Assembly: GCA_900543675.1 (NCBI GenBank)
Contig: UQRY01000002.1
Span: 17,750-81,749 of the forward strand
DNA from: an uncultured Mycoplasmatota bacterium
GTDB lineage: Bacteria > Bacillota_I > Bacilli_A > RF39 > UBA660
DNA: 64,000 nucleotides
Direction of reading: 5' to 3'
The notes under the pieces: model-generated
What the model saw: only the letters and a program-made list of their open reading frames with translations
What the model was told of the DNA's origin: nothing
The model's database searches: none
In this document: positions 6,478 through 60,193 of the stretch, one piece after another
Numbering within the stretch: position 1 is the stretch's first letter
Layout: each line of letters starts with the position of its first letter
Translations under genes and position numbers: made by a program

Positions 6478-6497
6478 AATACAAGGAGCATCAAGAC

Positions 6498-8144: not shown

Positions 8145-8156
8145 GAGAATAGAATT

Positions 8157-9863: not shown

Positions 9864-9874
9864 GAGATAAAAAC

Positions 9875-11578
9875 ATGAATATAGAAAAATTAAATAGTAT
9901 AAAAGAAATTCTGATTAAGATGGAAGAATATCAAGTAGAACTAATTAATCCTGAAGAATCTTTTCAAAAATTATTAAATGAAGAAGAAGAAACTTTACAG
10001 TTATTAGCAGAATTACCGCTTCTTCCTAATCAAGAAGCCAAAGAATTATATGAATTTTATCTATCTTTAAATAATACTAGGCATAAATATAGAATATTAC
10101 GTTATTTACTAAAAGATGAAACTAATCCTAAGAATTCGTTAAATGTAAATGTACTTGATGCCTTTTATCGCTTAAATCCAAGTGAAAAAAATCTATTTGG
10201 ATTTATAAAAAATATGGAACAAGTACCTGGAGTAGAAGAGAATTTTTTATTTATCACCTCGTATTTTCAAAAGGGACTAGGGGGATTTTCTAAACTAAGT
10301 AATCAGGAACTTCTTACTTTTCTAAAACCTTTTTATATAGACCGCCGGAGTTTTCTTTCAGGGTGGAGATTAAAAGAAGTGGCTGAATATTTAAGTAAAC
10401 TACAGGAAGAGAACAAGTTATTGACTAAGCAATATCTAACACAAGAAGAAATGTTAGAGTTATTATCCAAAAGTATAGATAATACCAATATTATTTCTAT
10501 TTTATCGTCTTCTAGTTTACTCAATATGTTAGAAAATAAACAGATAACACGAAAAGAGTATCAAACGATAATTCAACTGATTCTAAAAGAAAAAGAGGAT
10601 TATCAATCTGTGAAAATAACGGGATTCTTCACAGAGCCTAATTTAGAACGATTGATTACGGCATCTAATCTCTCAATGGAAGAAGTAATTCGTTTTGTTC
10701 AAGAACGTCAAAAATATCCGCTTAAAGAGAATATAGTAGCGTTAAGGATGTTTGAACAATTACTTTCTGATGAATGGTGTGACTATTGTTTAGCTACTCA
10801 TGAAAATCCACTTGTCTTAAGTCAAAAATTCGCTAGCTGGTTACAGATGCCTGCAGAATACTCTGGAAGTTTTATTAGTCATTTAGATAACCACAAAACC
10901 GACATCATTAGAATTCTAGAAAATGGGAAGAACCAACAAGAAAATTTTCAAGAAATGGAAGAACTAATTAACTTTATTAAAAATCTTCTTCCATATACGA
11001 GGATAATGACACTAAATTTGTTGGATAAAACCTGTCTTTCTTCTGTTACTTCTTTTCAAGAAGCCTTAACGAAGTTAAAACCATTAGAAGATAAGAGAGT
11101 AGATTTACCGTTATTAAATACAGTATCCTCATTAATCGATAATGACTGTTTTGAAGAAATGATAGCCACTAATCCAGATAGAAAAGAAGTTCTTTCCTAC
11201 TTAGTCATGAAAGAAATCAATACTAATGATCCTTTATATGTAGAAAAATTAAATACAGTTACTCGTATTTTAACCTCACGTCATTTTCTTTATCATGTGA
11301 ATCAGGTAGTAGAAAATGAACAATTATTTCAATTGATCAATATGATTTTTACTTGTGATAAAGAGTGGCAATTAACGAATCTTTATCAAATATCTACCGA
11401 AGAATATAGAGAAATATCTCCAGATACTTATTTACTACTCCTTCATTACATGAAAGAAAATCAGTGTCGCGATCAAATAACGGATAAAGACGAGTCTATA
11501 TATAGAAAGTATATTCGTCAAATTGATACGATGATAGAAAGTAAAAACAATAAAGTATATAAGAAAAGGAAAAAATAA
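9875..11578 (+). CDS. Hypothetical protein, paralog 4 of 4 (most diverged)
   Basis: 567 aa, SD TAGGAGA, 11 nt after paralog 3. Weaker versions of the same motifs (EKLNSIKEILIKME, MLELLSKSI, VIRFVQERQ, LINMIFTCDKEWQLTN, YLLLLHYM). Confidence 0.8.
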   Translation: MNIEKLNSIKEILIKMEEYQVELINPEESFQKLLNEEEETLQLLAELPLLPNQEAKELYEFYLSLNNTRHKYRILRYLLKDETNPKNSLNVNVLDAFYRLNPSEKNLFGFIKNMEQVPGVEENFLFITSYFQKGLGGFSKLSNQELLTFLKPFYIDRRSFLSGWRLKEVAEYLSKLQEENKLLTKQYLTQEEMLELLSKSIDNTNIISILSSSSLLNMLENKQITRKEYQTIIQLILKEKEDYQSVKITGFFTEPNLERLITASNLSMEEVIRFVQERQKYPLKENIVALRMFEQLLSDEWCDYCLATHENPLVLSQKFASWLQMPAEYSGSFISHLDNHKTDIIRILENGKNQQENFQEMEELINFIKNLLPYTRIMTLNLLDKTCLSSVTSFQEALTKLKPLEDKRVDLPLLNTVSSLIDNDCFEEMIATNPDRKEVLSYLVMKEINTNDPLYVEKLNTVTRILTSRHFLYHVNQVVENEQLFQLINMIFTCDKEWQLTNLYQISTEEYREISPDTYLLLLHYMKENQCRDQITDKDESIYRKYIRQIDTMIESKNNKVYKKRKK

Positions 11579-48271: not shown

Positions 48272-49147
48272 ATGGAAAAAGCAAAAGTATATTTTACAAG
48301 TGAAGTATCACCAGAAAGTGTTGTAAAAATCTATGAAGCATTAGGAGTAGAATTACCTGGTAAGGTAGCTGTTAAATTACATTCCGGAGAACAGGGCAAT
48401 CGAAATTATTTACGTCCTGAATTTGTTCAAAAAATGGTGGAAAGAGTAAATGGAACGGTTGTAGAGTGTAATACGGCTTATGAAGGAGCTAGAAATACAA
48501 CAGAGAAGCATAAGAAATTGATGGAAGAACATGAGTGGTCAAAATATTTCAATGTCGATATCATGGATGAAGAAGGACCAGATATGGAATTAGAAATCCC
48601 AAATGGTATTCAAATTAAGAAAAACTATGTTGGTAAACATATGGCTAATTATGATTCAATGTTGGTATTATCCCATTTTAAAGGTCATGCGATGGGAGGC
48701 TTTGGTGGAGCTTTAAAACAATTATCGATCGGTTGTGCATCTTCTTATGGAAAAGCATATATTCATGGCGCAGGGGAAGCTAAAGAAAATATATTTGGGA
48801 CTGATCAAGTAAAATTTGTTACATCGATGGGAGATGCTGCAAGTAGTGTTCACAAATATTTTAATGGTAATATTGCCTACATTAATGCGATGGTAAATAT
48901 TTCTATTGATTGTGATTGTGATGGAAATGCTTCTGCCCCTTGTATGAAGAATATTGGAATTTTAGCAAGCACTGATCCAGTTGCGATTGATCAAGCATGT
49001 ATTGATATTGTCTATAATAGTACTGATCCGGGTAAGGATAAACTAATTCATAGAATCGAAGAGAAAAAAGGATTATATATCATCGATACAGCTGAAAAGT
49101 TAAAGACTGGTACTAAAGAATACGAATTAATTAATATTGACAAATAA
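48272..49147 (+). CDS. DUF362-family protein (uncharacterised Fe-S-centre protein family)
   Basis: VAVKLHSGEQGN, ECNTAY, LSHFKGHAMGGFGGALKQLSIG and a C-terminal Cys cluster DCDCDG...C. ATG at 48272 sits 6 nt after SD AAGGAGAG. Confidence 0.7.
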   Translation: MEKAKVYFTSEVSPESVVKIYEALGVELPGKVAVKLHSGEQGNRNYLRPEFVQKMVERVNGTVVECNTAYEGARNTTEKHKKLMEEHEWSKYFNVDIMDEEGPDMELEIPNGIQIKKNYVGKHMANYDSMLVLSHFKGHAMGGFGGALKQLSIGCASSYGKAYIHGAGEAKENIFGTDQVKFVTSMGDAASSVHKYFNGNIAYINAMVNISIDCDCDGNASAPCMKNIGILASTDPVAIDQACIDIVYNSTDPGKDKLIHRIEEKKGLYIIDTAEKLKTGTKEYELINIDK

Positions 49148-49154
49148 AATAACA

Positions 49155-49185
49155 AAAAGAGAAAGCCTAAGAAACTTTCTCTTTT
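49155..49185 (+). terminator. Rho-independent terminator
   Basis: 11-bp stem AAAAGAGAAAG / CTTTCTCTTTT. Confidence 0.75.
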
Positions 49186-49240
49186 CCTATACAAACCAAA
49201 TTGTCTTAATATTCATATTTTATATTAGGTGATAAACAAT

Positions 49241-49888
49241 ATGAAAAAATTCTATCCGAGTAACTGTTTTATACTAGGACCAACTGGGCCGACAGGGCCT
49301 ACTGGGCCTAGTAATGGCATTATTGGTCCCACCGGTCCAATGGGAATGACGGGTCCAACAGGTCCCACCGGTCCAATGGGAATGACGGGTCCAACAGGTC
49401 CCACCGGTCCAACGGGAATGACGGGTCCAACAGGCCCCACCGGGCCAATCGGAATGACGGGTTCAACGGGCCCAACGGGTCCAGAAATAAATAATAATTA
49501 TGCTTTATTCCAAAATCAAGATACAGATATTACTTCTGGGACATTGATTCCCCTTTCTACGCAGTTTAGTGGCGGAAGTCCAACGATTACAGTAAGTGGC
49601 TCAACCATTACTTTACCTAGTCCAGGCACATATTACGTTTCCTTTAGTTTAACAGGCAGATTAGGCACTACTCAAAATGGAACCATAATTCCAATTATTG
49701 GTGGCGCAATCCAAGATCGTTATACTACCATCAATAATACCAATACTACTAATCCTGATATCACAATAGAAGATGGAGTTTTAGTTCAAGCACCTAGTAC
49801 TACTACTATCCAATTCTTCTACAGCGGAAGTACAGATATGTCTAGGGCTAACTTCTTTGTTTCTGTATTTAAAGTTTCCAACCAATAA
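49241..49888 (+). CDS. Collagen-like (G-X-Y) repeat protein with BclA-like globular C-terminal domain
   Basis: 23 G-X-Y triplets (GPT/GPM/GMT) with one register break, then a ~135 aa Thr/Ser/Gly-rich beta-type domain. ATG at 49241 after SD AGGTGA. Confidence 0.85.
49277..49483 (+). repeat. Tandem 9/36-bp coding repeats ([12 protein letters not shown] units)
   Basis: Near-identical units ggtccaacaggtcccaccggtccaatgggaatgacg repeated. Locally GC-rich compared with its surroundings. Confidence 0.9.
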
Positions 49889-49963
49889 AGTATATTCTAT
49901 TAAGCATGTACAAACAAAATAATATTTGCTAAAATAATGATAATAATGTAGGAGGCAAAGGTA

Positions 49964-50173
49964 ATGAAAAGAATTGAATTTATAACTATACAATCTAAAG
50001 TAAATGGTTATGGTTTGGGTAAAGGGGTAAAATATATTTTTGAAAATTATCGAGATATCATCAAAGAAAAACTAGAACAGGGTTATGAGTATAAAGGATT
50101 TCTTCCTGTTGAAATAAGGGGAACAGGAGAAATAGAAAAAATAGATTTAATTTTTGAGAGTGTAGAAAGATAA
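49964..50173 (+). CDS. Small DUF4177-like protein, tentative
   Basis: 69 aa. QGYEYKGFLPVEIRGTGEIEKIDLIFE resembles the DUF4177 C-terminal pattern. SD GGAGG. Confidence 0.45.
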   Translation: MKRIEFITIQSKVNGYGLGKGVKYIFENYRDIIKEKLEQGYEYKGFLPVEIRGTGEIEKIDLIFESVER

Positions 50174-50198
50174 CAACTAAATAACAAGGAGTAATTGT

Positions 50199-51065
50199 AT
50201 GAAAATTAAATTTATATCTAAAAAACACATTTTTTCGTTAATTAGTAACTTCGTTTTGGTTTTTTCTTTACTTTCGTTTTTATTAATAATCAGGAGAGAA
50301 ACGCCAAGTGTAATTTCTGCCAGCGATTTTACCCAATACATGAAAGAACAAGGCTGTGATATTATTGATGTTCAAGAACAAGCTAACTATCCTGGAGTAG
50401 ATACTTATTTAAACGTTTCCCAGTCGTGTCCATATTTAGCTAGTTATCTTGTTTTTCATGATGAAGCACAACAAGAGATGTTCTTCTCCACTTTAAAGAA
50501 AGAAGTATTATCTGCACCCAGCTTTCAATTTTTCACATACACAGAAATTCGTTTTCCTAGTTATCAAGAGTATTCAATAACAAGTAACCAATACAAAATG
50601 ATAACCCAAAATCAAAATTCCATTTTATTTGCTTTCGGTGATATCGAGGATAAGACTACTATTTTATCATTATTTCAACAATTCAATTATCATTATACCG
50701 GTAATATTTTCTATTTACTGGGAATTTTTATCCTCACTTTTCTTTTGATTTTTCTAGTTAGCTTTTGGAAAATCGAAAAGAAAATAAGAGATAAAGGCTG
50801 GATTGTTCTAATTCCATTTTATAATATTGGGTGCTTAACTAAAGACATATTCGGTTCAACTTGGCATGTACTTTTCCTATTTATTCCAATCATAAATATA
50901 TTCTTTATTTTAACTTTTCTCTATAAACTAGGAAAGGTGTTTAATAAGAGTAGTTATTATTGTATTGGACTTATGCTCTTACCAACAATTTTCTTACCAT
51001 TACTTGCTTTTGATGATTCAAAGTACAATATAGATAGAGGTCAAAATGAAACCAAATACAATTGA
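50199..51065 (+). CDS. Membrane protein with C-terminal DUF5684-like module
   Basis: N-terminal TM, ~150 aa extracytoplasmic region, then GWIVLIPFYNIG...LFLFIPIINIF...LLPTIFLPLLAF. Confidence 0.6.
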   Translation: MKIKFISKKHIFSLISNFVLVFSLLSFLLIIRRETPSVISASDFTQYMKEQGCDIIDVQEQANYPGVDTYLNVSQSCPYLASYLVFHDEAQQEMFFSTLKKEVLSAPSFQFFTYTEIRFPSYQEYSITSNQYKMITQNQNSILFAFGDIEDKTTILSLFQQFNYHYTGNIFYLLGIFILTFLLIFLVSFWKIEKKIRDKGWIVLIPFYNIGCLTKDIFGSTWHVLFLFIPIINIFFILTFLYKLGKVFNKSSYYCIGLMLLPTIFLPLLAFDDSKYNIDRGQNETKYN

Positions 51066-51163
51066 TGAATATATCGCATTAGCTAAAGCGGACATTTATT
51101 GACAGTAATCATATTTTTCATTCTTTTATATATTGGTTACCAAGTAAACTGGTATTATATTGT

Positions 51164-51568
51164 ATGGGGAGATATCTTGTATTGTTAAGAACTATTGAGA
51201 GAATATATGTATATTTTAGCTTGAAAAAAATAAAAAAATATCTGATAGAAAATTGTTTGTTAGATAAATTAGGTAGTATTGACTTTTGGAATGAACATCA
51301 TTATTTTTTAACCGCTAATTACATGATTATTATTAAAAAGGAAATCGTCTATGCCTTTCCTTATTCAGAAATAGAAAAAATAGATAAGAAAAGTAATGTT
51401 CATTTACATGGTTCGAATAGTAGAGTAGAAGAATATTTATATATAACAACAAAGATCAATGAATTTAAAGTATTAATATCAACAACATTATTAGTGGGGG
51501 AAGAGTATAGAGATATTAGTGATTATCTTTTAAATAAGAACCCTAATATCAAAGTAAATTCTATTTAG
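51164..51568 (+). CDS. Hypothetical protein
   Basis: 134 aa ORF with no motif and no convincing SD. The upstream in-frame reading MNISH is closed by TAG at 51077-51079 and TAA at 51107-51109, so it may be a damaged gene. Confidence 0.35.
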   Translation: MGRYLVLLRTIERIYVYFSLKKIKKYLIENCLLDKLGSIDFWNEHHYFLTANYMIIIKKEIVYAFPYSEIEKIDKKSNVHLHGSNSRVEEYLYITTKINEFKVLISTTLLVGEEYRDISDYLLNKNPNIKVNSI

Positions 51569-51716
51569 AAAACAAGATATGAGTTAAACAATAATGAGAA
51601 AATAACGCTAGTGATTATTGGATTAGTTCTAGTTTTTGCATCTTCTTTCTTTTCCTTCATATAAAGGGAGAAAAAACTCGATATCAAATAATAATTTAGA
51701 AAGGATGGAAGAAAAA

Positions 51717-52082
51717 ATGAATAAAGAAAAATTAACACTTTATTTAATGATTGGAGAAATAAAATTTAGTGCTACTTTAGAAAATAACGAAACGACAAAA
51801 GAATTACTCCAACGCTTACCTTTAGAAATAGAAATGAAAGAATTAAATGGTAATGAAAAATATTATTATTTTGATGAGCACTTACCTAGGAATGCCTCTT
51901 TAGTAAATAAAATTAATGTAGGCGATATCATGCTATTTGGTGATAATTGCCTAGTCATTTTCTATCAGTCTTTTGTAACTTCTTATTCTTATACAAAACT
52001 TGGAAAAATAGATAATCCCGATTCATTAGCAGAAGTCCTAGGCTCTGGTAATATTAAAGTAAAAATAATGAAAGGAAACTGA
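51717..52082 (+). CDS. Cyclophilin-like-fold protein (Cyclophil_like type)
   Basis: IKFSATLENNETTKELLQRLPLEIEMKELNGNEKYYY...VGDIMLFGDNCLVIFY...LGKI. ATG at 51717 after SD AAAGGATGG. Confidence 0.7.
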   Translation: MNKEKLTLYLMIGEIKFSATLENNETTKELLQRLPLEIEMKELNGNEKYYYFDEHLPRNASLVNKINVGDIMLFGDNCLVIFYQSFVTSYSYTKLGKIDNPDSLAEVLGSGNIKVKIMKGN

Positions 52083-52094
52083 AAGAAAGGAACA

Positions 52095-52688
52095 ATGAAC
52101 AAAAATAGAATTAGATATTGTCAACGGGATTTTCATTTGGCAGAAATAGAAGAACAACAATTAGACTGGAACTTAGAAAAATATGGTTGTGGTCCAACTT
52201 CAATTGCGAATATTTTAATCAATTATGGCTATTCCTTTAATCCTGTAGATATTGCCAAGAAAATACTATTTGATCGAGAAGGAAAGTTTGATCCTACTTA
52301 TCTAAGAAATAAAGGAATCCATCCCGAAGGATTAATTTATTGCTTAAAGCGGTTAATCATAGAAGATAAACTAAATATTTCTTACTGGATTATCCATATC
52401 GATTTCTCGCATCCTGACAAACAAAAGAATCAAATAATCAAATGGGTAAAAGAAGGGAATATGGCAATTATCCATGTCGGCCCTTCGGAAGGAAGTCCAC
52501 TAACTTTTTCCCAACATGGTCATTACTTAGTGGTTAGTGATGTCGATGACGAAGAAAATTTATATGTCATTAATTCTAATGAGATAGGGGATAATCAATT
52601 GGGTGTTCCTTTTAGATTCTCCTTGGTAATCGATAATATGCTAGGAAGAAAAGACTCCTTTCAATTTCTATTCATAAAAAATAACTAA
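52095..52688 (+). CDS. Peptidase_C39-like (papain-fold) cysteine peptidase domain protein
   Basis: YCQRD (oxyanion Gln), YGCGPTSIANIL (nucleophile Cys), HGHYLVVSDVD (His), VINSNE. No signal peptide. 12 nt after the previous gene. Confidence 0.7.
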   Translation: MNKNRIRYCQRDFHLAEIEEQQLDWNLEKYGCGPTSIANILINYGYSFNPVDIAKKILFDREGKFDPTYLRNKGIHPEGLIYCLKRLIIEDKLNISYWIIHIDFSHPDKQKNQIIKWVKEGNMAIIHVGPSEGSPLTFSQHGHYLVVSDVDDEENLYVINSNEIGDNQLGVPFRFSLVIDNMLGRKDSFQFLFIKNN

Positions 52689-52763
52689 AAAGTGAATATT
52701 TTTGCCAAGTGTTATAAAGTATTATATAATAAGTGACATGTCAAAAAAGAAAGAAGTGTCACG

Positions 52764-54242
52764 ATGAAGAAAAATAATGAGGAAAAGTTTGAAAAGCAAT
52801 TAGAAGAAATTTTTACTAAAGGGAATCAGTATTACTCTGATCAAGAAATTATCGAAAGAACGGAAGTAGCCACTAAATATTTAGATAAACGAAGAGAGTA
52901 TGAATTAAAAAGAAAGATAAAAATATTTTGCGCTTTAACACTTAAAGATTTTAACTTAAAAATTAAGTGGATAAGAGAATCTTTTTTTAAAACGAAAAAC
53001 AATACCTTAGTTTATGATTGGCTATCCTTAACTACTATATTAAAAGCTTCCTCTTTAGAAATACAGGAAATCCTACTAAATAGCCTTCTGTTCAATCATG
53101 TCTTTGAAAGAAAACAGGAATCTCTTCCAATCTCTAACTTTCCTCGTTATGGAGTGGAACTAGAATATTGTTCTTTACAATTTGAAATGATCAGGACATT
53201 AGCTACTACCGATCAATTACTAGCCAAGATGATGTATGCTATGAAAATACCTGAAGAATTAGTTAGTCAAATTACTAATTGCTTAGTCTTCGAGAAAAAG
53301 AACGTTACAACAAAATGGAACCTATCTAAAGAATGTGGCAATGATTGGACTCCTGAAATATCTTCACCCATTATGACAAATTCCTTAAATGACTTAAATC
53401 AATTAAAAGCAGTTTGCATGTTGTTTAAAGAACTAGGCGCTATGACGGATGAAGCAACAGGACTACATATTAATATCGATGCTAATTATTTTGAGGGTAA
53501 TATTACGGCGTTAAAAAACTTGTTAATCATTTGGGGAGAATGTGAAGAACTATTCTACAAGCTAGCAAGTGGGGATCATAAAAGAATCAGAACTGTGGCC
53601 AAACGTTTTTGTTCTCCAATTAAAGATAATATTCAAAAAACATTCCAAGAAAATCCTACGTTAAAATTAGAAACGAAAGAAGATTTTTATTCTTTTATTT
53701 ATACTATTCAAGTGCGAAATCGCCTAGAAACGGTATTACGATTAAAGGGAGTAAATTTAAAAGCTTATGATGATATAGAAACACTTACTGAGTTAGAAAA
53801 ATATAATCTATTTAAGAAGTCCTTTTCTAAAACAGACTTTTATCATTACGGAGTACGCTATACGAGCCTTAATTTTAGTCAGATGAAATGGTATAAAAAA
53901 GATAAAGGTAGAATTGAGTTTCGGATATTTGATAATAGCTTATCTTATCAAGTGGTTATTGAAAACTTATTATTGATTGCGAGGCTTTGTGAAGTTAGTT
54001 TGAATCTTACAAAATCAAATCAAAGACAAAGTCAATTTTTCTTACTCCAAGAACATGAAGTAAGTGAAGAGGAGAAATTAAACCGACTACTAGATTTATT
54101 ATTTGATGAAAAACAGATAAAAGAAGTCTTTAAACAACGGTGGCAGAGAGTAAAAGACGACTCTTTCTACCAACAATTTACAGGTGAAATAGCTACTTTC
54201 TCTCATCGTGAATCATCCCATTACTTATCGAAACACTTATAA
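52764..54242 (+). CDS. Amidoligase_2-family (GS/GCS-fold COOH-NH2 ligase) protein with ~115 aa N-terminal extension
   Basis: Ordered family motifs GVELEY, TPEISSPIM, TGLHINID, YTSLNF, GRIEFRIFDNSL. Confidence 0.75.
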   Translation: MKKNNEEKFEKQLEEIFTKGNQYYSDQEIIERTEVATKYLDKRREYELKRKIKIFCALTLKDFNLKIKWIRESFFKTKNNTLVYDWLSLTTILKASSLEIQEILLNSLLFNHVFERKQESLPISNFPRYGVELEYCSLQFEMIRTLATTDQLLAKMMYAMKIPEELVSQITNCLVFEKKNVTTKWNLSKECGNDWTPEISSPIMTNSLNDLNQLKAVCMLFKELGAMTDEATGLHINIDANYFEGNITALKNLLIIWGECEELFYKLASGDHKRIRTVAKRFCSPIKDNIQKTFQENPTLKLETKEDFYSFIYTIQVRNRLETVLRLKGVNLKAYDDIETLTELEKYNLFKKSFSKTDFYHYGVRYTSLNFSQMKWYKKDKGRIEFRIFDNSLSYQVVIENLLLIARLCEVSLNLTKSNQRQSQFFLLQEHEVSEEEKLNRLLDLLFDEKQIKEVFKQRWQRVKDDSFYQQFTGEIATFSHRESSHYLSKHL

Positions 54243-54287
54243 AGTTTCCTATGAATAATTCAAAAAAGACAGAGCTTCTTTAAGTAT

Positions 54288-55361
54288 CTATCTTTTTTTT
54301 GCCAATGATTTATATAAAGGGCTACCTAATTGATCTTTATCCATATTCTGCATATGTCCTTGATAATGGATAGTATCTTCTCCTTCAGGAGTTAAATAAT
54401 AAACTTGACAGCATTTAATGTCTTTAGTTAGTAAAATTGGTTTTACTGCCCGTATTCCCATATGCCAATATCCTTGATAACCAATAGAACCCATGCCTGC
54501 TGAACAGTGTACATGAAGACCAATTCTCCCTAATGAACTTCTACCACTTACCATCGGAATTAAATGATAAGTTTCTGTCCATTCATTCGTTCTTCCTAAA
54601 TAGATTTCATCGGGATAAAGCCATATTCCTTTATCTCCAATTGGAATTTTTTCAATAGTATTTTCTTTTTTCATATCTAAGATAGGATCAGTATAAATTC
54701 CAACGGTATCATGTAAAGTCAAGTTGACGGAATTAGGATTAATTAAAATTTTATCCTGAGGGCTAATGAAAATATCTGGATCACTTTTTTGCATTCTATT
54801 CTTGATTTCTTCGCCACTTAACATTCCCGATGAATAGATACCACAAGATTTTTCTTCATCAATCTTTCTTGTTTCATTAGATTTTTCTAAGCTAGGGAAA
54901 AAGGTTAAATTCGCAATCTTGATATCCGGATAAATAATGGTTGGTTTGGTTGCGATAATGCTTAAAAATAAGTGTCCATCAAAATTATCAGTTTTATAGC
55001 CATTTGTTAACTCGATACTAACCCCTAAAAGAGATAGTGTTGCTTTCCCATTCATCACAGGAACAAAACCATGAGTGGTTACTTTTTCTATCGTTTTGGC
55101 TAAATATACTTTATGAGGTTGTAAGAGTAATCCTTCTTCTGGAATTACTACTTTTCTTAAATTGACTGGCTGATCGTTTAATACTTCATGTAGATAATTA
55201 CGACTATTTTTGGTATCGATAATATCATAGTCAAAGACATATAAAGTATTTCCTAATCTTAAATCACAACTATTTGGTTTATTTAAAGCATCTCCTTGTA
55301 AGTTTTCAATTACAATATTGCCTAATTCCATCTGTCTTTTTATCTCTTTACTTGTTAACAT
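54288..55361 (-). CDS. Tandem double dCTP-deaminase/dUTPase-fold protein (both domains catalytically incomplete)
   Basis: The N-domain has NGKATLSLLGVSIEL...LFLSI, with the RSS motif, Arg and Glu all replaced. The C-domain has SGRSSLGRIGLHVHCSAG...WHMGI, with RSS and Arg kept and the catalytic Glu position Gly. Confidence 0.75.
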   Translation of the reverse strand: MLTSKEIKRQMELGNIVIENLQGDALNKPNSCDLRLGNTLYVFDYDIIDTKNSRNYLHEVLNDQPVNLRKVVIPEEGLLLQPHKVYLAKTIEKVTTHGFVPVMNGKATLSLLGVSIELTNGYKTDNFDGHLFLSIIATKPTIIYPDIKIANLTFFPSLEKSNETRKIDEEKSCGIYSSGMLSGEEIKNRMQKSDPDIFISPQDKILINPNSVNLTLHDTVGIYTDPILDMKKENTIEKIPIGDKGIWLYPDEIYLGRTNEWTETYHLIPMVSGRSSLGRIGLHVHCSAGMGSIGYQGYWHMGIRAVKPILLTKDIKCCQVYYLTPEGEDTIHYQGHMQNMDKDQLGSPLYKSLAKKR

Positions 55362-55902
55362 CTGACTTCACCAATACTTTCTGTTTCTGTTCATACTCGG
55401 TATAGAGCCTAGAAGCTGTTGGCTCCACTTGCCCAAAATATTTTCCACGATATTTATTCTTATCATCACCAATTAATGGATAATAATAAACTCGCCCAAT
55501 TGGCATATTTTTATATACTCTAGTTGGATTATTACAGACAATCTCTAATGTCCAAGTGCCTTCGAATCCATTATCTCCAAACCCAGCAGTGACATGAATT
55601 TCCATACCTACTGCAGCTAACTCTTCTGTTCCCGCTAAAAGAGGAACAAATCCATATGTCTTGGTAAACTCTAAAGTTCTACCAATATAAAGTTCATTTG
55701 GCTTTAAGATTAACCCTTCATCAGGAATTATAATTTCTTTGGTAGGTGTAGAATTAGTAATACTTAAAAATGGTGCATCATAGACTTTGACAGAGTCACC
55801 AAGTGTTACTTCAATAAAATTCTCTTCTAAATGATCATTACTATTATCTACATATATACTTTTTCTAGTTATTTCTTCTTTAATTGCTTCTTTACTTAAC
55901 AT
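55348..55902 (-). CDS. Single-domain dCTP-deaminase-fold protein (Glu retained, Ser/Arg motif lost)
   Basis: AGTEELAAVGMEIHVTAGFGDNGFEGTWTLEI aligns with Dcd [32 protein letters not shown]. ATG at 55902 after SD GGAGGAGG. Its 3' end overlaps the next gene by 14 nt. Confidence 0.75.
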   Translation of the reverse strand: MLSKEAIKEEITRKSIYVDNSNDHLEENFIEVTLGDSVKVYDAPFLSITNSTPTKEIIIPDEGLILKPNELYIGRTLEFTKTYGFVPLLAGTEELAAVGMEIHVTAGFGDNGFEGTWTLEIVCNNPTRVYKNMPIGRVYYYPLIGDDKNKYRGKYFGQVEPTASRLYTEYEQKQKVLVKSDVNK

Positions 55903-56131
55903 ATAAACCTCCTCCAAAAATTTTAACAAAGATCATATCAAATAACAATCGAAATTAAGAAAATTATTTAACAATATGAGTATTAAAGGTTACTGCTCAG
56001 CCATAAATAGAAAATTTTATATCCCAAAAGTAAAAAAATATGACTTTCTAAGTTTTTACAAATGTTTTTTTGTAAGAGCTAAAGACTTTTTGTTAGGAAT
56101 TTGATACAATCCTTTTTAGGGGGGAGAAATT

Positions 56132-57748
56132 ATGGTGGAATATGAAAAGTTTAGTGAAGAGACTAAAAAGTTCTTTCAAAAAGCAATGGATATCTACGCA
56201 AATATCGAACCATTAGAAATTCAAAAAGTAGTAGAAAAGATTGGGGGTGATAAACAACAATATACGTTATCAAGATTAGACAAAAAAGTATTTTCCATGT
56301 TTATCGCAAGTTTTACTACGGATATCCACCTACAATCTCTCTTAGGAGAATATGATGATATTAAAAAAGAAGATTTATTTTCTTTTATTGGGATTAAAGA
56401 AGAAGAGATTAAACCATTAGAAAGTTCTTATTTAACGTATTATAATACGAAATTTAAATTAGATTTATTCAATATGGTAGAAGAAGACTTAGATACTTAT
56501 TCTATTTTAGAAATTACTCCAGAATTTATTTACTATTTGTTAAGAAAAAACGTAGCTGGATCAGACGTAGTTGCTTATTTTATGGACTCAATGAAAGAAC
56601 ATTTAAATTATTCAGGATTTACTCATCTTAATCATCCTAGTTTTAAAACAGTCAATAATTATCTAGTATTGAATCATATGATACAGTATAAAAATTCTAC
56701 TACTAAAAAGAATTCTCTATTTTTAACTGAAGAGGATGATTTAACTTTAGAACAGAAAAGACAAAATTTATTTACGAAAAGTCAACAAGAATTATGGACT
56801 CTTTTGGAAGAAATAAAGAAAAAGTTTATTGGTCAAGAAAGACTAGTAGAAGATTTATTTTATACGATGATTTATAACCAAGATTTAGCTTCTAATAAAA
56901 GATTAACGGATGGGGAGAGAGCAATTCTATTTATAGATGGACCAACGGGAACAGGAAAAACTGCAATTACCCGAGAAATTTGCCGTAAACTAACTATTCC
57001 CGTTGCTTTTGCTTCATCTGTCAATTATTCTTCAACCGGATATGAAGGAGCGAATATCACGGATTTGTTAGCACAATTATATCAAGCATCTGGAAACAAT
57101 TTACAACTAGCAGAACGGGGAATTATTCTATTAGACGAATTTGATAAATTAGCTTACACATCGGATGATGGAATCAAAATGAAAAAAGCCGTTCAACAAC
57201 AACTTCTTGATTTTCTTGGTGGTGGAGTATATCCCGTAAATATTGGAAATAAATTTTTAAAAACAGAACAAGTAGAATTTGATACGTCAAAGTTAACCTT
57301 TATTCTTCTAGGCGCTTTATCAGAACTAAGAAATAAAAAAATAGTAGATAGTGATATCTATTCTATTGTGCCAGAAGATTTAATTGCCCATGGCTTAGAA
57401 CGTGAACTAGTAGGAAGAATCAATACTTATTTACACACTGATGAATATACCAAAGAAGATTTACTTAGAATTTTAAAAGAATCTTCTATCAGTCCAATAC
57501 TGAGTTTAAAAAAGGGAGTATCTTTATATGGAAAAGAGTTAATCATCGATGAAGAGATCTATGAAGATATCGTAAATGCAGCTTACGATTTGCACAGTGG
57601 CGCAAGAGGACTACAAACGATTATTAATAATATTCGAACATCTTTTCTTAAAGAAATACTAAGAGGAGAAGAACAAACCATTTATTTAGGAAAAGAAAGA
57701 GTAAAAGAAGATATTGAAAAAATATTTGTAAGAAGGATAAACCGTTAA
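56132..57748 (+). CDS. ClpX-like AAA+ ATPase paralog without Zn-finger and IGF loop, with a ~260 aa novel (Clp_N-like?) N-terminal region
   Basis: FIGQERLVEDL, Walker A GPTGTGKT, pore-loop position GYEG (ClpX has GYVG), Walker B ILLDEFDK, VPEDLIAHGLERELVGRI, sensor-2 GARGLQ. Confidence 0.8.
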   Translation: MVEYEKFSEETKKFFQKAMDIYANIEPLEIQKVVEKIGGDKQQYTLSRLDKKVFSMFIASFTTDIHLQSLLGEYDDIKKEDLFSFIGIKEEEIKPLESSYLTYYNTKFKLDLFNMVEEDLDTYSILEITPEFIYYLLRKNVAGSDVVAYFMDSMKEHLNYSGFTHLNHPSFKTVNNYLVLNHMIQYKNSTTKKNSLFLTEEDDLTLEQKRQNLFTKSQQELWTLLEEIKKKFIGQERLVEDLFYTMIYNQDLASNKRLTDGERAILFIDGPTGTGKTAITREICRKLTIPVAFASSVNYSSTGYEGANITDLLAQLYQASGNNLQLAERGIILLDEFDKLAYTSDDGIKMKKAVQQQLLDFLGGGVYPVNIGNKFLKTEQVEFDTSKLTFILLGALSELRNKKIVDSDIYSIVPEDLIAHGLERELVGRINTYLHTDEYTKEDLLRILKESSISPILSLKKGVSLYGKELIIDEEIYEDIVNAAYDLHSGARGLQTIINNIRTSFLKEILRGEEQTIYLGKERVKEDIEKIFVRRINR

Positions 57749-57749
57749 G

Positions 57750-58103
57750 ATGAAGTATCAATATAATGGCCATTTACTAGAAGAAGAAAGAATAGAACTA
57801 GTCGCCACGGAAATCATGATGAAATACCCAGAGATCAATCGTAGAGATGCTGAAAAAATAGCTGCCCTAGAAGGAAGTATTTCTACTAACTGTAATTTCG
57901 ATATGATATTTACCCGATTATATCATATTATGCTAATCATGAATCAGGACAAGAAAATAGTTAGGAAAGTATATAAAGATCTTCTTTTCTATTTAAAGGA
58001 AAATCAATCGACAGATAAAATAGATGTTTATGAACAAACGATAATAGAAATATATCGATTTTTAATGAATGAAAGAGAATTCCCTTTATTAGAAGAATAT
58101 TAA
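57750..58103 (+). CDS. Small hypothetical protein translationally coupled to the ClpX-like ATPase
   Basis: ATG lies 1 nt after the upstream TAA. 117 aa, helical, no motif. Confidence 0.6.
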   Translation: MKYQYNGHLLEEERIELVATEIMMKYPEINRRDAEKIAALEGSISTNCNFDMIFTRLYHIMLIMNQDKKIVRKVYKDLLFYLKENQSTDKIDVYEQTIIEIYRFLMNEREFPLLEEY

Positions 58104-58237
58104 GTACAAATGATTGGGTCTTTTAGTACCAAAAATATTTATAGTAAAAAAATTTACTAATAACTAAAAAAAGATAAGGAATGGTAGATGTACTTTCCTT
58201 TTTTGTTTGGTATAATACTAGTAAAGAAGGAGGATTT

Positions 58238-59011
58238 ATGAAAAAGTGGAAAATTTATAGTATCATAATCACAATAATACTTGTCTTAGTAATTATTGGA
58301 GTATGTGTATATGCTTTTGTTATTCGTGAAACATTTACTGAGGAAGAAGCTAAAAATATTGCCTTAGAATATGCAAATGTGGTGGAAGATAATGTCACCT
58401 TTTTATCAGTTAAGAAAGACCATGGAGATAGAGAGTTTGAGATCAAATTTTATGATGATTTGTATGAATATGAACTCGATGTTAATTATCATAATGGCAA
58501 AGTAGCTAATTTTGAAAAAGATATTAGAGATAATGTCAATATTAAAGACGATCAGACAGTTTCCATGACCGAAGAAGAAGCTAAAAATATTGCGCTACAA
58601 AGAGTAGGAAAAACAGATGATGAAGTAACCTTTACTAAAGTAAGAACGGATAGAGAAAACGGAATTACGGTCTATGAAGTTGACTTTTATGATACAGAAA
58701 AAGAATATGAGTTAAGTATAGATGTGGATACCAAAGAAGTAATTAGTTATAAAGAAGATGAACTACATACTCATAATGATAATTCTAATACGACCCCTAC
58801 CAATAACTATATTGGAACTAAAAGAGCGAAAGAAATAGTTTTAGACCATGCCAAATTAAGTAGTAGTGAAGTAACCTTTCGTAAAGTAGAATTGGATGTT
58901 GATTACCAAATTGCGACTTATGAAATAGAATTTGATTATCAGTATTTTGAATATGAATATGAACTAAACGCAGTAACTGGTGAAATCCTAAAGTACGAAA
59001 GAGATAGGTAA
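58238..59011 (+). CDS. Membrane-anchored protein with three PepSY repeats
   Basis: TM helix, then three EEAKNIAL..V....VTF.KV....D....YE(I/V)(K/D)FY....EYE..(V/I)D....G.V units. ATG at 58238 after AGGAGG. Confidence 0.85.
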   Translation: MKKWKIYSIIITIILVLVIIGVCVYAFVIRETFTEEEAKNIALEYANVVEDNVTFLSVKKDHGDREFEIKFYDDLYEYELDVNYHNGKVANFEKDIRDNVNIKDDQTVSMTEEEAKNIALQRVGKTDDEVTFTKVRTDRENGITVYEVDFYDTEKEYELSIDVDTKEVISYKEDELHTHNDNSNTTPTNNYIGTKRAKEIVLDHAKLSSSEVTFRKVELDVDYQIATYEIEFDYQYFEYEYELNAVTGEILKYERDR

Positions 59012-59070
59012 AACCCAATCAGATAATATAGATAATAATAAAATAATTGAAAAGAAAAAGGTGTAAAAAA

Positions 59071-59652
59071 ATGAAAGATTTAGATGAATACCAAGAAAAA
59101 GAAATAAAAGTCTTAGAAGTAGATATAGCGAGTTTAACTAAAAAATTAGAAGAAATCGGGGCAAAAAAAGTATACGATGATACTAGAGAAATTATTGTTT
59201 TAGATACAAAAGATAGACAATTTTTAAAACAACAGGATAAATTAGTTAGAGTAACCGATGAAGGAAGTATCAAAGTAACGATGCATATTCATCAAAGTGA
59301 TCCAACTAAGAAAAGACAAATCAAATTTAAAGCAAGCCGATTAAAAGAAACTCTAGATTTTTTTCATGAAATGGGCTTAGATCCAATTAGTAGAGTAAAA
59401 GCACCTAGGATTTCTTATGAATTAGGAAAAATAGATTTCGATATCGATAGTTTTCCACTCATTCCACCATTCTTAGAAATTGATATTGAACATATCAGAG
59501 AAGAAGGATATACTGTAGAAAGTTTATTGAAAAAATTAGGATTAGAAAATAACATAGTAGTAGAAATGGGAACTGAAGATATCCATAAACTCTATCACAT
59601 TGATTATTTTGAGGCTTATCAAGTCGTGGAAGAAAAGAAATCAGTAAAGTAG
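59071..59652 (+). CDS. CYTH-domain protein (class IV adenylate cyclase / triphosphate tunnel metalloenzyme)
   Basis: N-terminal EKEIKVLEV (ExExK), later RVTDEG...KVTMH, RISYEL, FDIDSF...FLEIDIE beta-barrel pattern. Confidence 0.75.
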   Translation: MKDLDEYQEKEIKVLEVDIASLTKKLEEIGAKKVYDDTREIIVLDTKDRQFLKQQDKLVRVTDEGSIKVTMHIHQSDPTKKRQIKFKASRLKETLDFFHEMGLDPISRVKAPRISYELGKIDFDIDSFPLIPPFLEIDIEHIREEGYTVESLLKKLGLENNIVVEMGTEDIHKLYHIDYFEAYQVVEEKKSVK

Positions 59653-59704
59653 GAAAAAGATAAATTACAAGTGATAGGGGTTATAAATAATAAAAGGGGT
59701 TCGT

Positions 59705-60193
59705 ATGATAGAGTTTAAAAAGATAAGTGAGTTTCCAAAAGGTACATTATATAATCAGTTAGTAGATGCCTATTCATTTAATGTTAATTGTCAAAAAACT
59801 TGGGACCAAATGTGGCAGGAGTATGACAATTTTTTCTATTCTAATTTGGACTCTATTGCGGATAAATATGGTTTTATTACTGTAGTAGATGGTATTGCAG
59901 TTGGTCATATATCTTGGGATCCACGAAATAGACCTAACGAGGTAACCATAGGACATAACTGTATCTTATCTAGTTTCAAAGGTAGAGGGTATGGTAAACT
60001 TCAATTAGAAGAAGCAATTAATCGAATTAAAGAATATGATGTAAAGAAAATTGTTGTTACGACGAATGAAATCTTATTACCTGCTCAGAAGAATTATGAA
60101 AGTGTAGGGTTTATCAAAGTGGCCGAAAGAAAAAATACTGAAACTCCGTTTGCTGGTAATTATATAGATTATGAAATGATAATAAAACAATAA
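59705..60193 (+). CDS. GNAT-family N-acetyltransferase
   Basis: FKGRGYGKLQLEEAINRIKE (Q/RxxGxG/A) and NYESVGF. Confidence 0.85.
   Translation: MIEFKKISEFPKGTLYNQLVDAYSFNVNCQKTWDQMWQEYDNFFYSNLDSIADKYGFITVVDGIAVGHISWDPRNRPNEVTIGHNCILSSFKGRGYGKLQLEEAINRIKEYDVKKIVVTTNEILLPAQKNYESVGFIKVAERKNTETPFAGNYIDYEMIIKQ

What the first reader, a model, noticed from the sequence alone, without database searches (positions are those of the whole stretch)
51717..54242. Cyclophilin-like / C39-like cysteine peptidase / Amidoligase_2 gene trio
Seen: three same-strand genes with gaps of 12 and 75 nt.
- A 121 aa cyclophilin-like-fold protein.
- A cytoplasmic papain-fold peptidase with Gln/Cys/His/Asn in C39-like order (CQRD, GCGPTS, GHYLVV, NSNE).
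- A 492 aa protein with the full Amidoligase_2 motif series (GVELEY, EISSPIM, GLHINID, IEFRIF) plus an extra N-terminal helical region.

Established: Amidoligase_2 proteins have the glutamine-synthetase / gamma-glutamylcysteine-ligase fold. Comparative genomics predicts that they form amide (isopeptide-like) bonds on peptides or small molecules, often next to peptidases on mobile elements. None is biochemically well defined.

Inference: a ligase plus peptidase pair could add and remove a peptide or amino-acid tag, or build and trim a small peptide metabolite, with the cyclophilin-like protein as a binding partner. The DUF4177, DUF5684 and unknown genes just upstream may or may not belong to it.
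Basis: partly seen in the sequence, partly recalled or inferred. Interest (0 to 1): 0.65.

Follow-up and report, generated by a model that had tools for sequence, protein, structure and literature searches.

The report
Three neighbour genes, not one system
The three genes are real and correctly named, but comparison with dozens of related genomes shows they are separately inherited neighbours in a strain-variable stretch of an uncultured gut bacterium, not a conserved ligase-peptidase machine.

Summary
Three same-strand ORFs sit at 51717-54242 with gaps of 12 and 75 nt. Each passes Pfam's curated cut-off: Cyclophil_like2, Peptidase_C39_2 and Amidoligase_2. All quoted motifs are present.

The interpretation as a functional ligase/peptidase/binding-partner trio is not supported.
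- **Rarity:** the trio occurs in only 2 of about 30 amidoligase lineages examined.
- **Syntenic relatives:** at the same chromosomal site, including same-species strains, the slot before the amidoligase is empty or holds a cadherin-like surface protein.
- **Own promoter:** the amidoligase has a conserved promoter-like 5' region whatever lies upstream.
- **Separate histories:** the CypL2-C39 pair is younger than the adjacent amidoligase (dS 0.26-0.35 against 0.81).
- **Different usual contexts:** close C39-like homologues (~70% identity, >300 clusters) mostly sit next to a SAM methyltransferase. CypL2 relatives are mostly secreted or lipoproteins in unrelated contexts.
- **Lost signal peptide:** in this species, frameshifts have cut the signal peptide off CypL2.

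The whole block ~49.9-56.1 kb is a divergent haplotype inside an otherwise near-identical species background.

The amidoligase belongs to a small, uncharacterised Firmicutes subfamily with the YbdK / glutamine-synthetase / PafA fold. In Clostridia it pairs with a different 133-aa gene.

Ordinary to modest interest.

The parts
51594..51716 (+). Decayed 5' end of the CypL2 gene. It holds remnants of a signal/TM-anchor coding region (MRK / ITLVIIGLVLV / FFLFLHI) spread over three reading frames.
   Evidence: Alignment with the intact L013 ORF (MRKIMLIVIELVLVSGVLFLFLHV...) shows three 1-nt deletions in the window. The window-species assemblies L046-L053, L057 and L058 match the window in this stretch; L014 lacks the first deletion but still runs into a stop.
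51717..52082 (+). Cyclophilin-like-fold protein (PF18050), 121 aa and leaderless. Alternative starts are 51705 (125 aa) and 51636 (148 aa).
   Evidence: Pfam E 7.8e-33. 915 homologue clusters were found, and most aligned relatives have an N-terminal signal or lipobox. Within-species piN/piS is 0.17.
52095..52688 (+). Cytoplasmic papain-fold enzyme of the Peptidase_C39_2 family, 197 aa.
   Evidence: Pfam 39.2 bits against GA 24. Q10, C32, H143 and N160 are invariant. The AF2 model (pLDDT 73) matches phytochelatin-synthase-like Alr0975, the ComA C39 domain, CtaG and papain-like toxins. More than 300 clusters share ~70% identity.
52702..52730 (+). Sigma-70-type promoter-like element (TTGCCA-17-TATAAT) in the 75-nt gap, just upstream of the amidoligase.
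   Evidence: It is the best match (11 of 12) in the 8.4-kb region scanned. The -10 box and the surrounding ~70 nt are conserved in window, L013, L010, L001 and L022, whatever the upstream gene. This is a consensus match only.
52733..52762 (+). Conserved inverted repeat GTGACA...TGTCAC. It brackets the purine-rich ribosome-binding region immediately before the amidoligase ATG.
   Evidence: Read directly from the sequence. It is conserved across five loci. Its function was not tested.
52764..54242 (+). Amidoligase_2 / carboxylate-amine ligase, 492 aa. It has an all-helical N-terminal region (1-~125), a catalytic core (~128-390) and a C-terminal helical bundle (~395-472).
   Evidence: Pfam, phrog_2443 and an AF2 model with pLDDT 88 and pTM 0.87. 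Foldseek matches YbdK, GS, Dop/PafA and GCL and phage amidoligases. The family alignment shows an invariant motif set.
49890..56100 (.). Divergent haplotype block that contains the trio. It runs DUF4177, DUF5684, a 134-aa unknown, CypL2, C39 and the amidoligase, then two dCTP-deaminase-like genes on the - strand.
   Evidence: Same-species contigs L010/L011 are 95-98% identical in the flanks (dS 0.03-0.05). Inside the block dS is 0.6-1.4 and gene content differs.

Best explanation
The 'trio' is a lineage-specific juxtaposition of separately inherited genes. They lie in a recombining, strain-variable chromosomal block of an uncultured, low-GC gut Bacilli species.

**(1) The amidoligase is the resident gene of the site.**
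- It has its own conserved promoter-like 5' region and stands alone in most relatives.
- Most likely it is a cytoplasmic ATP-dependent carboxylate-amine ligase. The inferred mechanism is Mg-ATP activation of a carboxylate to an acyl-phosphate, followed by attack by an amine.
- The invariant Glu, Asn and Arg residues, with the nearly invariant His235, would form the glutamine-synthetase / YbdK-type active site.
- The poorly conserved helical N- and C-terminal modules probably choose the substrate. I guess a peptide or protein side chain rather than a bulk metabolite.

**(2) The C39-like protein is a widely distributed, highly conserved cytoplasmic papain-fold enzyme.** It has an intact Gln/Cys/His/Asn set. 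It entered this site together with CypL2 and has a different usual partner elsewhere, a SAM methyltransferase.

**(3) CypL2 derives from a secreted or membrane-anchored family.** In this species it has lost its leader and survives as a leaderless ORF under purifying selection.

**What is shown:** the family and fold assignments, the lack of conserved co-occurrence, the separate divergence depths, the conserved 5' region and the frameshifts.

**What is inferred:** the chemistry, the substrate class, and promoter use.
For: **Co-occurrence**
- Syntenic relatives carry DUF362-collagen-DUF5684-amidoligase-DCD-DCD with nothing before the amidoligase (L001, 57% identity) or a cadherin-like gene there (L010 63%, L022).
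- More distant relatives stand alone or follow an unrelated 133-aa gene, c1, in 17 of 17 Clostridia-type loci.
- A profile scan of all 68 loci finds the trio only in the window's lineage and in L013.
- C39-like homologues sit in other contexts, as do CypL2 homologues.

**Own promoter and 5' region**.

**Separate histories**
- Window vs L013: dS is 0.26 for CypL2 and 0.35 for C39, against 0.81 for the amidoligase and 0.61 for DCD357.
- Window vs same-species L010/L011: dS is 0.03-0.05 in the flanks against 0.6-1.4 in the block.
- Amidoligase alleles are mosaic.

**Dispensability**
- C39 carries a nonsense allele in L050.
- The amidoligase ORF is split in L020, L022, L037 and L065.

**CypL2 leader loss**.

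**Fold and active site**.
Against: - The three genes are tightly spaced on one strand, and no terminator-like site lies between them, so read-through co-transcription is possible.
- The arrangement is stable across more than ten independent assemblies of the species and in L013.
- All three genes show purifying selection within the species (piN/piS 0.17-0.19), so none is simply decaying.
- A ligase next to a clan-CA thiol enzyme is a theme predicted for other amidoligases. This rests on my recollection of Iyer et al. 2009, which could not be read here.
- The promoter is only a consensus match.
- No expression data could be obtained.
Confidence: 0.7

Rival explanations
1. A recently assembled but genuine ligase-peptidase module. 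In this lineage the C39-like thiol enzyme removes or trims, or as a transferase passes on, the amide-linked group that the amidoligase installs. Leaderless CypL2 has been co-opted as a cytoplasmic adaptor.
For: - Same strand, with gaps of 12 and 75 nt.
- The trio is retained in two allelic lineages and in many samples.
- All three genes are under purifying selection.
- The CypL2 domain acquired an ATG where L013 has GTG.
- The structural neighbours of the C39-like protein include enzymes that act on gamma-glutamyl peptides or form amide bonds: Alr0975 and CtaG.
Against: - There is no co-occurrence in about 30 other amidoligase lineages, nor in 7 C39 loci and 3 CypL2 loci.
- The amidoligase has its own conserved 5' region.
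- The pair and the ligase have different divergence depths.
- One strain carries a C39 nonsense allele with an intact ligase.
- Same-species strains lack the pair altogether.
Confidence: 0.15
2. CypL2 and C39 form a two-gene unit of their own, with a shared function unrelated to the amidoligase. The unit moved into this slot as a piece.
For: - The gap is 12 nt in the window and 18 nt in L013.
- Their dS values between window and L013 are similar (0.26 and 0.35) and are distinct from the neighbouring genes.
- Both are absent together from L001, L010 and L022.
Against: - Neither family is found next to the other outside this clade: 0 of 7 C39 loci and 0 of 3 CypL2 loci.
- One protein is ancestrally extracytoplasmic and the other cytoplasmic.
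- The samples are small.
Confidence: 0.3
3. The amidoligase subfamily is a conflict or defence gene, for example one that modifies a phage or competitor protein. This would explain its patchy, strain-variable distribution.
For: - It lies in a block with inter-species-level divergence between conspecific strains, and its alleles are mosaic.
- It has scattered chromosomal contexts, some next to serine recombinases or a relaxase.
- Split ORFs are frequent.
- The N-terminal helical repeat arrays vary in length, and family members range from 350 to 855 aa.
- The fold is closest to phage amidoligases.
Against: - There is no PADLOC hit.
- It is not found on phage or plasmid records.
- dN/dS is 0.16-0.22, so there is no overall signal of positive selection, and the block's divergence is explained by recombination.
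- No toxin or effector partner was identified.
Confidence: 0.2

Closest known systems
Amidoligase_2 (PF12224): phage/prophage 'amidoligase enzyme' (phrog_2443) of the GCS2/YbdK - glutamine synthetase - PafA carboxylate-amine ligase superfamily
   Same: - The Pfam and PHROG profile matches.
- The invariant GxExE, E..ExS, N and GRxExR motifs, with the His of GLHINI nearly invariant.
- The fold matches to YbdK 1r8g/1tt4, GS, Dop/PafA and GCL and to many phage amidoligases.
   Different: - It is chromosomal in gut Firmicutes and is absent from IMG/VR, INPHARED and PLSDB.
- It has an extra ~125-aa helical N-terminus, an insertion at ~300-365 and a conserved C-terminal helical bundle (EEKLNxLLxLLFD...RW...TF).
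- It has no glutamine-amidotransferase or gamma-glutamyl-cyclotransferase neighbour of the kind annotated beside prophage amidoligases (PMC11318856).
- No biochemistry is known for any member.
Pup ligase PafA / depupylase Dop (ligase plus de-ligase acting on a protein tag)
   Same: It shares the carboxylate-amine ligase fold superfamily.
   Different: - There is no Pup-like tag gene.
- The candidate 'remover' is a papain-fold thiol enzyme, not a Dop paralogue.
- The pairing is not conserved.
- Foldseek TM-scores are only ~0.27-0.29.
Peptidase family C39 (bacteriocin-processing domains of ABC transporters such as ComA and PCAT1) and phytochelatin-synthase-like Alr0975
   Same: The papain fold with the Gln/Cys/His/Asn order. 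The structural matches have TM ~0.5-0.58.
   Different: - It is a stand-alone 197-aa cytoplasmic protein.
- There is no ABC transporter and no double-glycine precursor nearby.
- Sequence identity to solved structures is 12-16%.
- Its usual neighbour elsewhere is a SAM methyltransferase.
Cyclophil_like2 (PF18050) proteins of Firmicutes and Bacteroidota
   Same: A strong profile match. The conserved NGNEKY...GD(I/L)ML(F/Y)G...FY...SY.YT core is present.
   Different: The N-terminal signal or lipoprotein leader that most aligned relatives carry has been severed by frameshifts in this species.

Membership tests
Amidoligase_2 (PF12224) | Profile score above Pfam's gathering cut-off | tested here: met
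   35.9 bits against 22, residues 128-370. phrog_2443 gives E 5.7e-15.
Amidoligase_2 (PF12224) | Conserved acidic/His/Arg motif series of the GS/GCS2-type active site | tested here: met
   G130, E132, E134, E190, E198, S200, N237, R383, E385 and R387 are invariant in 23 sequences; H235 is conserved in at least 90%.
Amidoligase_2 (PF12224) | Glutamine-synthetase / gamma-glutamylcysteine-ligase fold | tested here: met
   The AF2 model has pLDDT 88. The top PDB hits are YbdK, GS, Dop/PafA and GCL, with probability up to 1.00 but TM only 0.3-0.4. The BFVD hits are phage amidoligases, with E down to 1.5e-9.
Amidoligase_2 (PF12224) | ATP-dependent amide-bond formation | not testable with these tools
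   This needs an enzyme assay. No characterised member was found in the literature searched.
Peptidase_C39_2 (PF13529) | Profile score above the gathering cut-off, with catalytic Gln/Cys/His/Asn in papain order | tested here: met
   39.2 bits against 24. Q10, C32, H143 and N160 are invariant in 17 homologues.
Peptidase_C39_2 (PF13529) | Papain-like (clan CA) fold | tested here: met
   The AF2 model has pLDDT 73 and pTM 0.76. Foldseek matches Alr0975, the ComA/PCAT1 C39 domains, CtaG and staphopain with probability 1.00 and TM 0.5-0.58.
True C39 bacteriocin-processing peptidase | Fusion to or adjacency with an ABC exporter, and a double-glycine leader substrate | tested here: not met
   It is a stand-alone 197-aa ORF. 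No ABC transporter or precursor gene lies at 49-56 kb or in homologous loci.
Cyclophil_like2 (PF18050) | Profile score above the gathering cut-off | tested here: met
   113.4 bits against 22.7.
Cyclophil_like2 (PF18050) | N-terminal signal or lipoprotein leader. This is typical of relatives but is not a formal Pfam criterion. | tested here: not met
   14 of the 16 aligned relatives carry a hydrophobic leader. In the window the leader is cut off by three 1-nt deletions.
   The trio is found only in the window's lineage and L013. It is absent from about 30 other amidoligase lineages and from 7 C39 and 3 CypL2 loci.
   A strong, conserved promoter-like element lies before the amidoligase. No terminator-like site lies between the genes. 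RNA data are unavailable.
   No multimer prediction is offered. No conserved small ORF was seen.
Known anti-phage defence systems (PADLOC-DB v2) | A profile match for any of the three proteins | tested here: not met
   There are no hits for the trio or its immediate neighbours.

The most novel reading that the evidence does not exclude
The amidoligase itself, not the trio, may represent an undescribed accessory system of gut Firmicutes. It would be a protein- or peptide-modifying carboxylate-amine ligase.
- Variable helical-repeat N-termini would choose its targets.
- It is exchanged between strains as divergent alleles.
- In Clostridia it works with a dedicated 133-aa partner (c1), and sometimes with a ~150-aa c2 as well.
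- Its role could be defence or inter-strain conflict.
Probability: 0.2. Interest if true: 0.6.

Novelty: new member of a known kind. Interest (0 to 1): 0.3.

Why it matters
**If the trio were a real system.** It would give a handle on the unknown chemistry of Amidoligase_2 enzymes. The evidence says it is not, so effort should not go into trio-based models.

**What remains useful.**
- There is a defined, uncharacterised Amidoligase_2 subfamily in animal and human gut Firmicutes: about 25 clusters in the close family, and about 500 representatives at E<1e-10 in the wider one. It has a confident structural model and, in Clostridia, a strictly conserved small partner gene. That partner is a better starting point for finding the substrate than the C39/CypL2 neighbours.
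- The locus is a clean example of a divergent haplotype block inside one species.

Tried and rejected
- **NCBIfam and PADLOC scans of the trio and its neighbours:** nothing for the three proteins.
- **Sequence search of PDB:** the amidoligase profile finds only a chance hit. CypL2 gives nothing significant. C39 gives only a 40-residue local match to 8yl2, a 'GTP-binding protein'.
- **c1 as a relative of window proteins:** I tested whether c1, the conserved Clostridia partner, is related to the window's 134-aa unknown, to CypL2 or to the amidoligase N-terminus. hhalign probabilities were below 1%, so this was rejected.
- **Mobile-element carriage:** none was found in IMG/VR, PLSDB or INPHARED.
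- **Accelerated or positive selection as the cause of amidoligase divergence:** rejected as the main cause. dS is also very high and dN/dS is 0.16-0.22.
- **C39 calls of 183 aa in other assemblies:** I checked whether these reflect a truncated gene. They do not; the 197-aa ORF is identical and only the caller's start differs.
- **N-terminal repeat:** the window's N-terminus does not match the strict ~29-residue repeat motif seen in the 823-aa relative. Only a weak pairwise similarity exists (27% over 131 aa, E 0.002).
- **Unavailable resources:** Iyer et al. 2009 could not be read.
Full report
**1. Observation**

- 51717-52082
- 52095-52688
- 52764-54242

The gaps are exactly 12 and 75 nt. Each protein passes the curated Pfam cut-off:
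- Cyclophil_like2 PF18050: 113 bits against a cut-off of 22.7.
- Peptidase_C39_2 PF13529: 39.2 bits against 24.
- Amidoligase_2 PF12224: 35.9 bits against 22.

All quoted motifs are present. NCBIfam and PADLOC return nothing for the three proteins. The neighbours are as described:
- DUF362
- a collagen/BclA-like protein
- DUF4177
- DUF5684
- a 134-aa protein with no family
- two convergent dCTP-deaminase-like genes downstream

The window is low-GC (~30%). The closest genome records are MAGs labelled uncultured Bacilli from animal and human gut samples.

**2. The amidoligase**

It belongs to a small, well-conserved family. A word-indexed search of 5.8 billion proteins found 25 clusters. A profile search of 1.84 billion representatives found 62 at E<1e-30, 511 at E<1e-10 and 1113 at E<1e-3, with lengths from about 350 to 855 aa.

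The 23-sequence alignment has these invariant residues: G130, E132, E134, E190, E198, S200, N237, R383, E385 and R387. H235 is conserved in at least 90% of the sequences. It also has a conserved IWGECEELFYK motif and a conserved C-terminal helical signature.

The AlphaFold2 model is confident (pLDDT 88, pTM 0.87). It shows an all-helical N-terminal region, a mixed core and a C-terminal helical bundle.

Foldseek results:
- Against PDB, only carboxylate-amine ligases score at the top: YbdK 1r8g/1tt4, glutamine synthetases, Dop/PafA and glutamate-cysteine ligases. Probabilities are high but TM-scores are low, at 0.3-0.4.
- Against BFVD, the top hits are dozens of phage proteins annotated as amidoligases, with E down to 1.5e-9.

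Membership of Amidoligase_2 and of the GS/GCS2 fold superfamily is therefore supported by sequence, motifs and structure. The chemistry is inference from that superfamily: ATP-dependent acyl-phosphate formation followed by attack by an amine. I found no biochemically characterised PF12224 member in the literature available. The founding comparative paper (Iyer et al. 2009) could not be read.

**3. Is the trio conserved? No.**

I fetched 68 loci and scanned them all with profiles of the amidoligase, CypL2, C39 and a partner gene found along the way.

The trio occurs in only two places:
- The window's own species, where amidoligases are ~99% identical. It was seen in more than ten independent assemblies: L014-L016, L046-L053, L057 and L058.
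- One sister lineage, L013, with an amidoligase at 69% identity.

At the same syntenic position (DUF362 - collagen-like - DUF5684 - [slot] - amidoligase - DCD - DCD), the slot differs:
- It is empty in L001/L018 (57% identity).
- It holds a 364-aa cadherin-like, membrane-anchored protein in L010-L012 and L022.

All more distant relatives lack both neighbours within 6-8 kb.

The ~439-aa Clostridia-type relatives are instead preceded in 17 of 17 loci by a conserved 133-aa gene I call c1, placed immediately upstream. In the most distant group a ~150-aa c2 gene is also present. c1 has no Pfam or PHROG family. It is unrelated to the window's 134-aa protein, to CypL2 or to the amidoligase N-terminus.

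**4. The partners live elsewhere**

*C39-like protein.* It has more than 300 homologue clusters of ~200 aa at 67-72% identity. One exact sequence is indexed in 905 blocks of the collection. In six such loci it follows a SAM-dependent methyltransferase in variable neighbourhoods. In a seventh it follows a metallophosphatase. It is never found with a CypL2 or an amidoligase.

*CypL2.* It has 915 homologue clusters. Of 16 aligned relatives, 14 carry an N-terminal hydrophobic leader, several with a lipobox-like Cys. The loci examined lie in a MerR-flavodoxin-hydrolase-cupin cluster or next to an MMPL transporter.

None of the three window proteins has a relative in PLSDB or INPHARED. The amidoligase has none in IMG/VR.

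**5. Signs of independent units inside the window**

(a) *A promoter-like element before the amidoligase.*
- The best sigma-70-type match in the 8.4 kb scanned lies in the 75-nt gap, directly before the amidoligase: TTGCCA-17-TATAAT, 11 of 12, at 52702-52730.
- The ~70 nt before the start codon are conserved in window, L013, L010, L001 and L022, whether the upstream gene is C39, the cadherin-like gene or DUF5684. This stretch includes the TATAAT and a GTGACA...TGTCAC inverted repeat around the ribosome-binding region.
- DNA homology between the window and L010 starts at 52703.
- This is a consensus-level argument, not proof. No terminator-like site separates the genes.

(b) *Different divergence depths.* Between the window and L013, synonymous divergence (dS) is:

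| Gene | dS |
|---|---|
| CypL2 | 0.26 |
| C39 | 0.35 |
| Amidoligase | 0.81 |
| DCD357 | 0.61 |

The pair therefore shares a younger ancestor than the genes beside it.

(c) *Loss of the CypL2 leader.* In L013 the CypL2 ORF is continuous with a hydrophobic leader (MRKIMLIVIELVLVSG...). In the window, three 1-nt deletions between 51594 and 51680 sever the leader. The ten other window-species assemblies checked (L046-L053, L057, L058) match the window in this stretch. L014 lacks the first deletion but still runs into a stop.

(d) *Dispensability.* One strain (L050) carries a nonsense codon in C39 beside an intact amidoligase. In several other lineages the amidoligase is split into two or three ORFs: L020, L022, L037 and L065. 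These could be pseudogenes or assembly errors.

**6. The block around the trio**

Contigs L010/L011 share 95-98% DNA identity with the window at 47432-49889 and 56102-59754. In those flanks dS is 0.03-0.05.

Between ~49.9 and ~56.1 kb the picture changes:
- dS rises to 0.99 (DUF5684), 1.42 (amidoligase) and 0.6-0.7 (the two DCD genes). That is as deep as between species; the window-to-L001 DUF362 dS is 0.82.
- Gene content differs.
- Amidoligase alleles are mosaic. For example, P0002 and P0003 are 86-90% identical over the first 180 alignment columns but 52-75% in most of the C-terminal half.

This is best read as import of divergent haplotypes by recombination, not as runaway protein evolution. 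Amidoligase dN/dS is 0.16-0.22, which is relaxed compared with the DCD genes (0.05-0.09) but clearly purifying.

Within the window's species all three trio genes have piN/piS of 0.17-0.19. The counts are small: CypL2 has only 7 segregating sites. The leaderless CypL2 is therefore probably still expressed and useful, and none of the three is simply dead.

**7. The C39-like enzyme**

Q10, C32, H143 and N160 are invariant. The model is of moderate confidence (pLDDT 73). Its neighbours in PDB are:
- the phytochelatin-synthase-like Alr0975 (glutathione acyl-enzyme)
- the ComA/PCAT1 C39 domains
- the amide-forming CtaG
- papain-like CDI toxins
- Josephin-type clippases

So it is a clan-CA thiol enzyme. 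It is not a bacteriocin-processing C39 in the strict sense, because there is no ABC exporter and no precursor. Whether it hydrolyses or transfers cannot be told from sequence.

**8. Verdict**

The proposed three-part system is not supported, and its stated refutation criterion (no co-occurrence elsewhere) is essentially met.

My best explanation (confidence ~0.7) has three parts:
- The amidoligase is an autonomous, self-promoted carboxylate-amine ligase resident at this site.
- The CypL2-C39 pair is a later passenger insertion into a recombining, variable block.
- CypL2 is a leaderless derivative of an extracytoplasmic family.

A recently assembled functional pairing in this one lineage cannot be excluded (~0.15).

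The most novel reading still open (~0.2) concerns the amidoligase subfamily itself. It could be an undescribed accessory or conflict system, given:
- its variable helical N-termini, with arrays of a ~29-residue repeat in an 823-aa relative;
- its scattered contexts, some next to recombinases or a relaxase;
- its dedicated c1 partner in Clostridia.

Against this, there is no PADLOC match, no phage or plasmid carriage, and no signal of positive selection.

Novelty: a new member, and an uncharacterised subfamily, of a known kind. Interest: 0.3.

Noticed in passing
window 49890-56100 (compared with L010, L011): A ~6-kb block has inter-species-level synonymous divergence (dS 0.6-1.4) and different gene content. 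It is embedded in flanks that are near-identical between conspecific strains (dS 0.03-0.05). The pattern points to a recombination-imported haplotype.
   Followed up: yes
L024-L031, L033-L035, L038, L062-L064, L067, L068 (immediately upstream of the amidoligase homologue): A conserved 133-150 aa gene ('c1') precedes every Clostridia-type amidoligase, placed immediately upstream (17 of 17 loci). Its invariant residues include SLCKI and K..NYI..N. It has no Pfam or PHROG family. A further ~150-aa gene ('c2') precedes it in L035 and L038, and sits upstream of the amidoligase without a c1 in L036 and L037.
   Followed up: partly
window 41486-42315: Rfam finds group II intron domains: D1-D4 at 41486-41721 and domains V/VI at 42203-42315. 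No reverse-transcriptase ORF lies between them. The next ORF (42303-43850) matches camelysin/Peptidase_M73, and a DDE transposase fragment follows at 43875-44273.
   Followed up: no
window 49229-49888: The collagen-like (GPT repeat) protein has a BclA-C-like tail. Its length varies between strains of the species (206, 218, 219, 230, 251 and 254 aa), which suggests repeat-number variation.
   Followed up: no
window 54288-55929 (- strand): A 357-aa protein made of two dCTP-deaminase-like domains overlaps by 14 nt a 193-aa single-domain paralogue. The pair is conserved at 91-94% aa across the genus. There is no PADLOC hit.
   Followed up: partly
window 52733-52762: An inverted repeat GTGACA...TGTCAC (with an inner TGACATGTCA palindrome) brackets the ribosome-binding region of the amidoligase. 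It is conserved in five loci and could be an operator or a translational hairpin.
   Followed up: partly
L050 7001-7606; L020, L022, L037, L065 (amidoligase): One strain has a premature stop (R62*) in the C39-like gene. In four other lineages the amidoligase reading frame is split into two or three pieces. These are either pseudogenes or assembly errors.
   Followed up: partly
window 52269-52388 (C39 residues 59-98): A 40-residue stretch (KFDPTYLRNKGIHPEGLIYCLK...NISYW) matches PDB 8yl2, annotated 'GTP-binding protein', at E 2.8e-5. No other similarity between the proteins was reported.
   Followed up: no
window 44890-47946: A 1018-aa ORF has no Pfam, NCBIfam, PADLOC or PHROG match. It is present in some strains (L048). 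In others (L046, L049-L052) only its last ~170 codons are called, next to an AAA_11 helicase gene and a 293-aa ORF. An IS110 transposase gene lies nearby in L047.
   Followed up: no
window 4819-11578: Four tandem same-strand ORFs have similar size (552, 548, 568 and 567 aa). They look like a paralogous array but were not examined.
   Followed up: no
L010 10436-12762; L047-L053 downstream of the DCD pair: The slot between the DCD pair and the AAA+ gene is also strain-variable. It is empty in the window. L010/L011 hold LysR, a cytidylyltransferase-like gene and a metallo-beta-lactamase (Apyc1-like) gene there. Other strains hold a 390-aa protein, a HipA_C kinase and an MFS gene.
   Followed up: no
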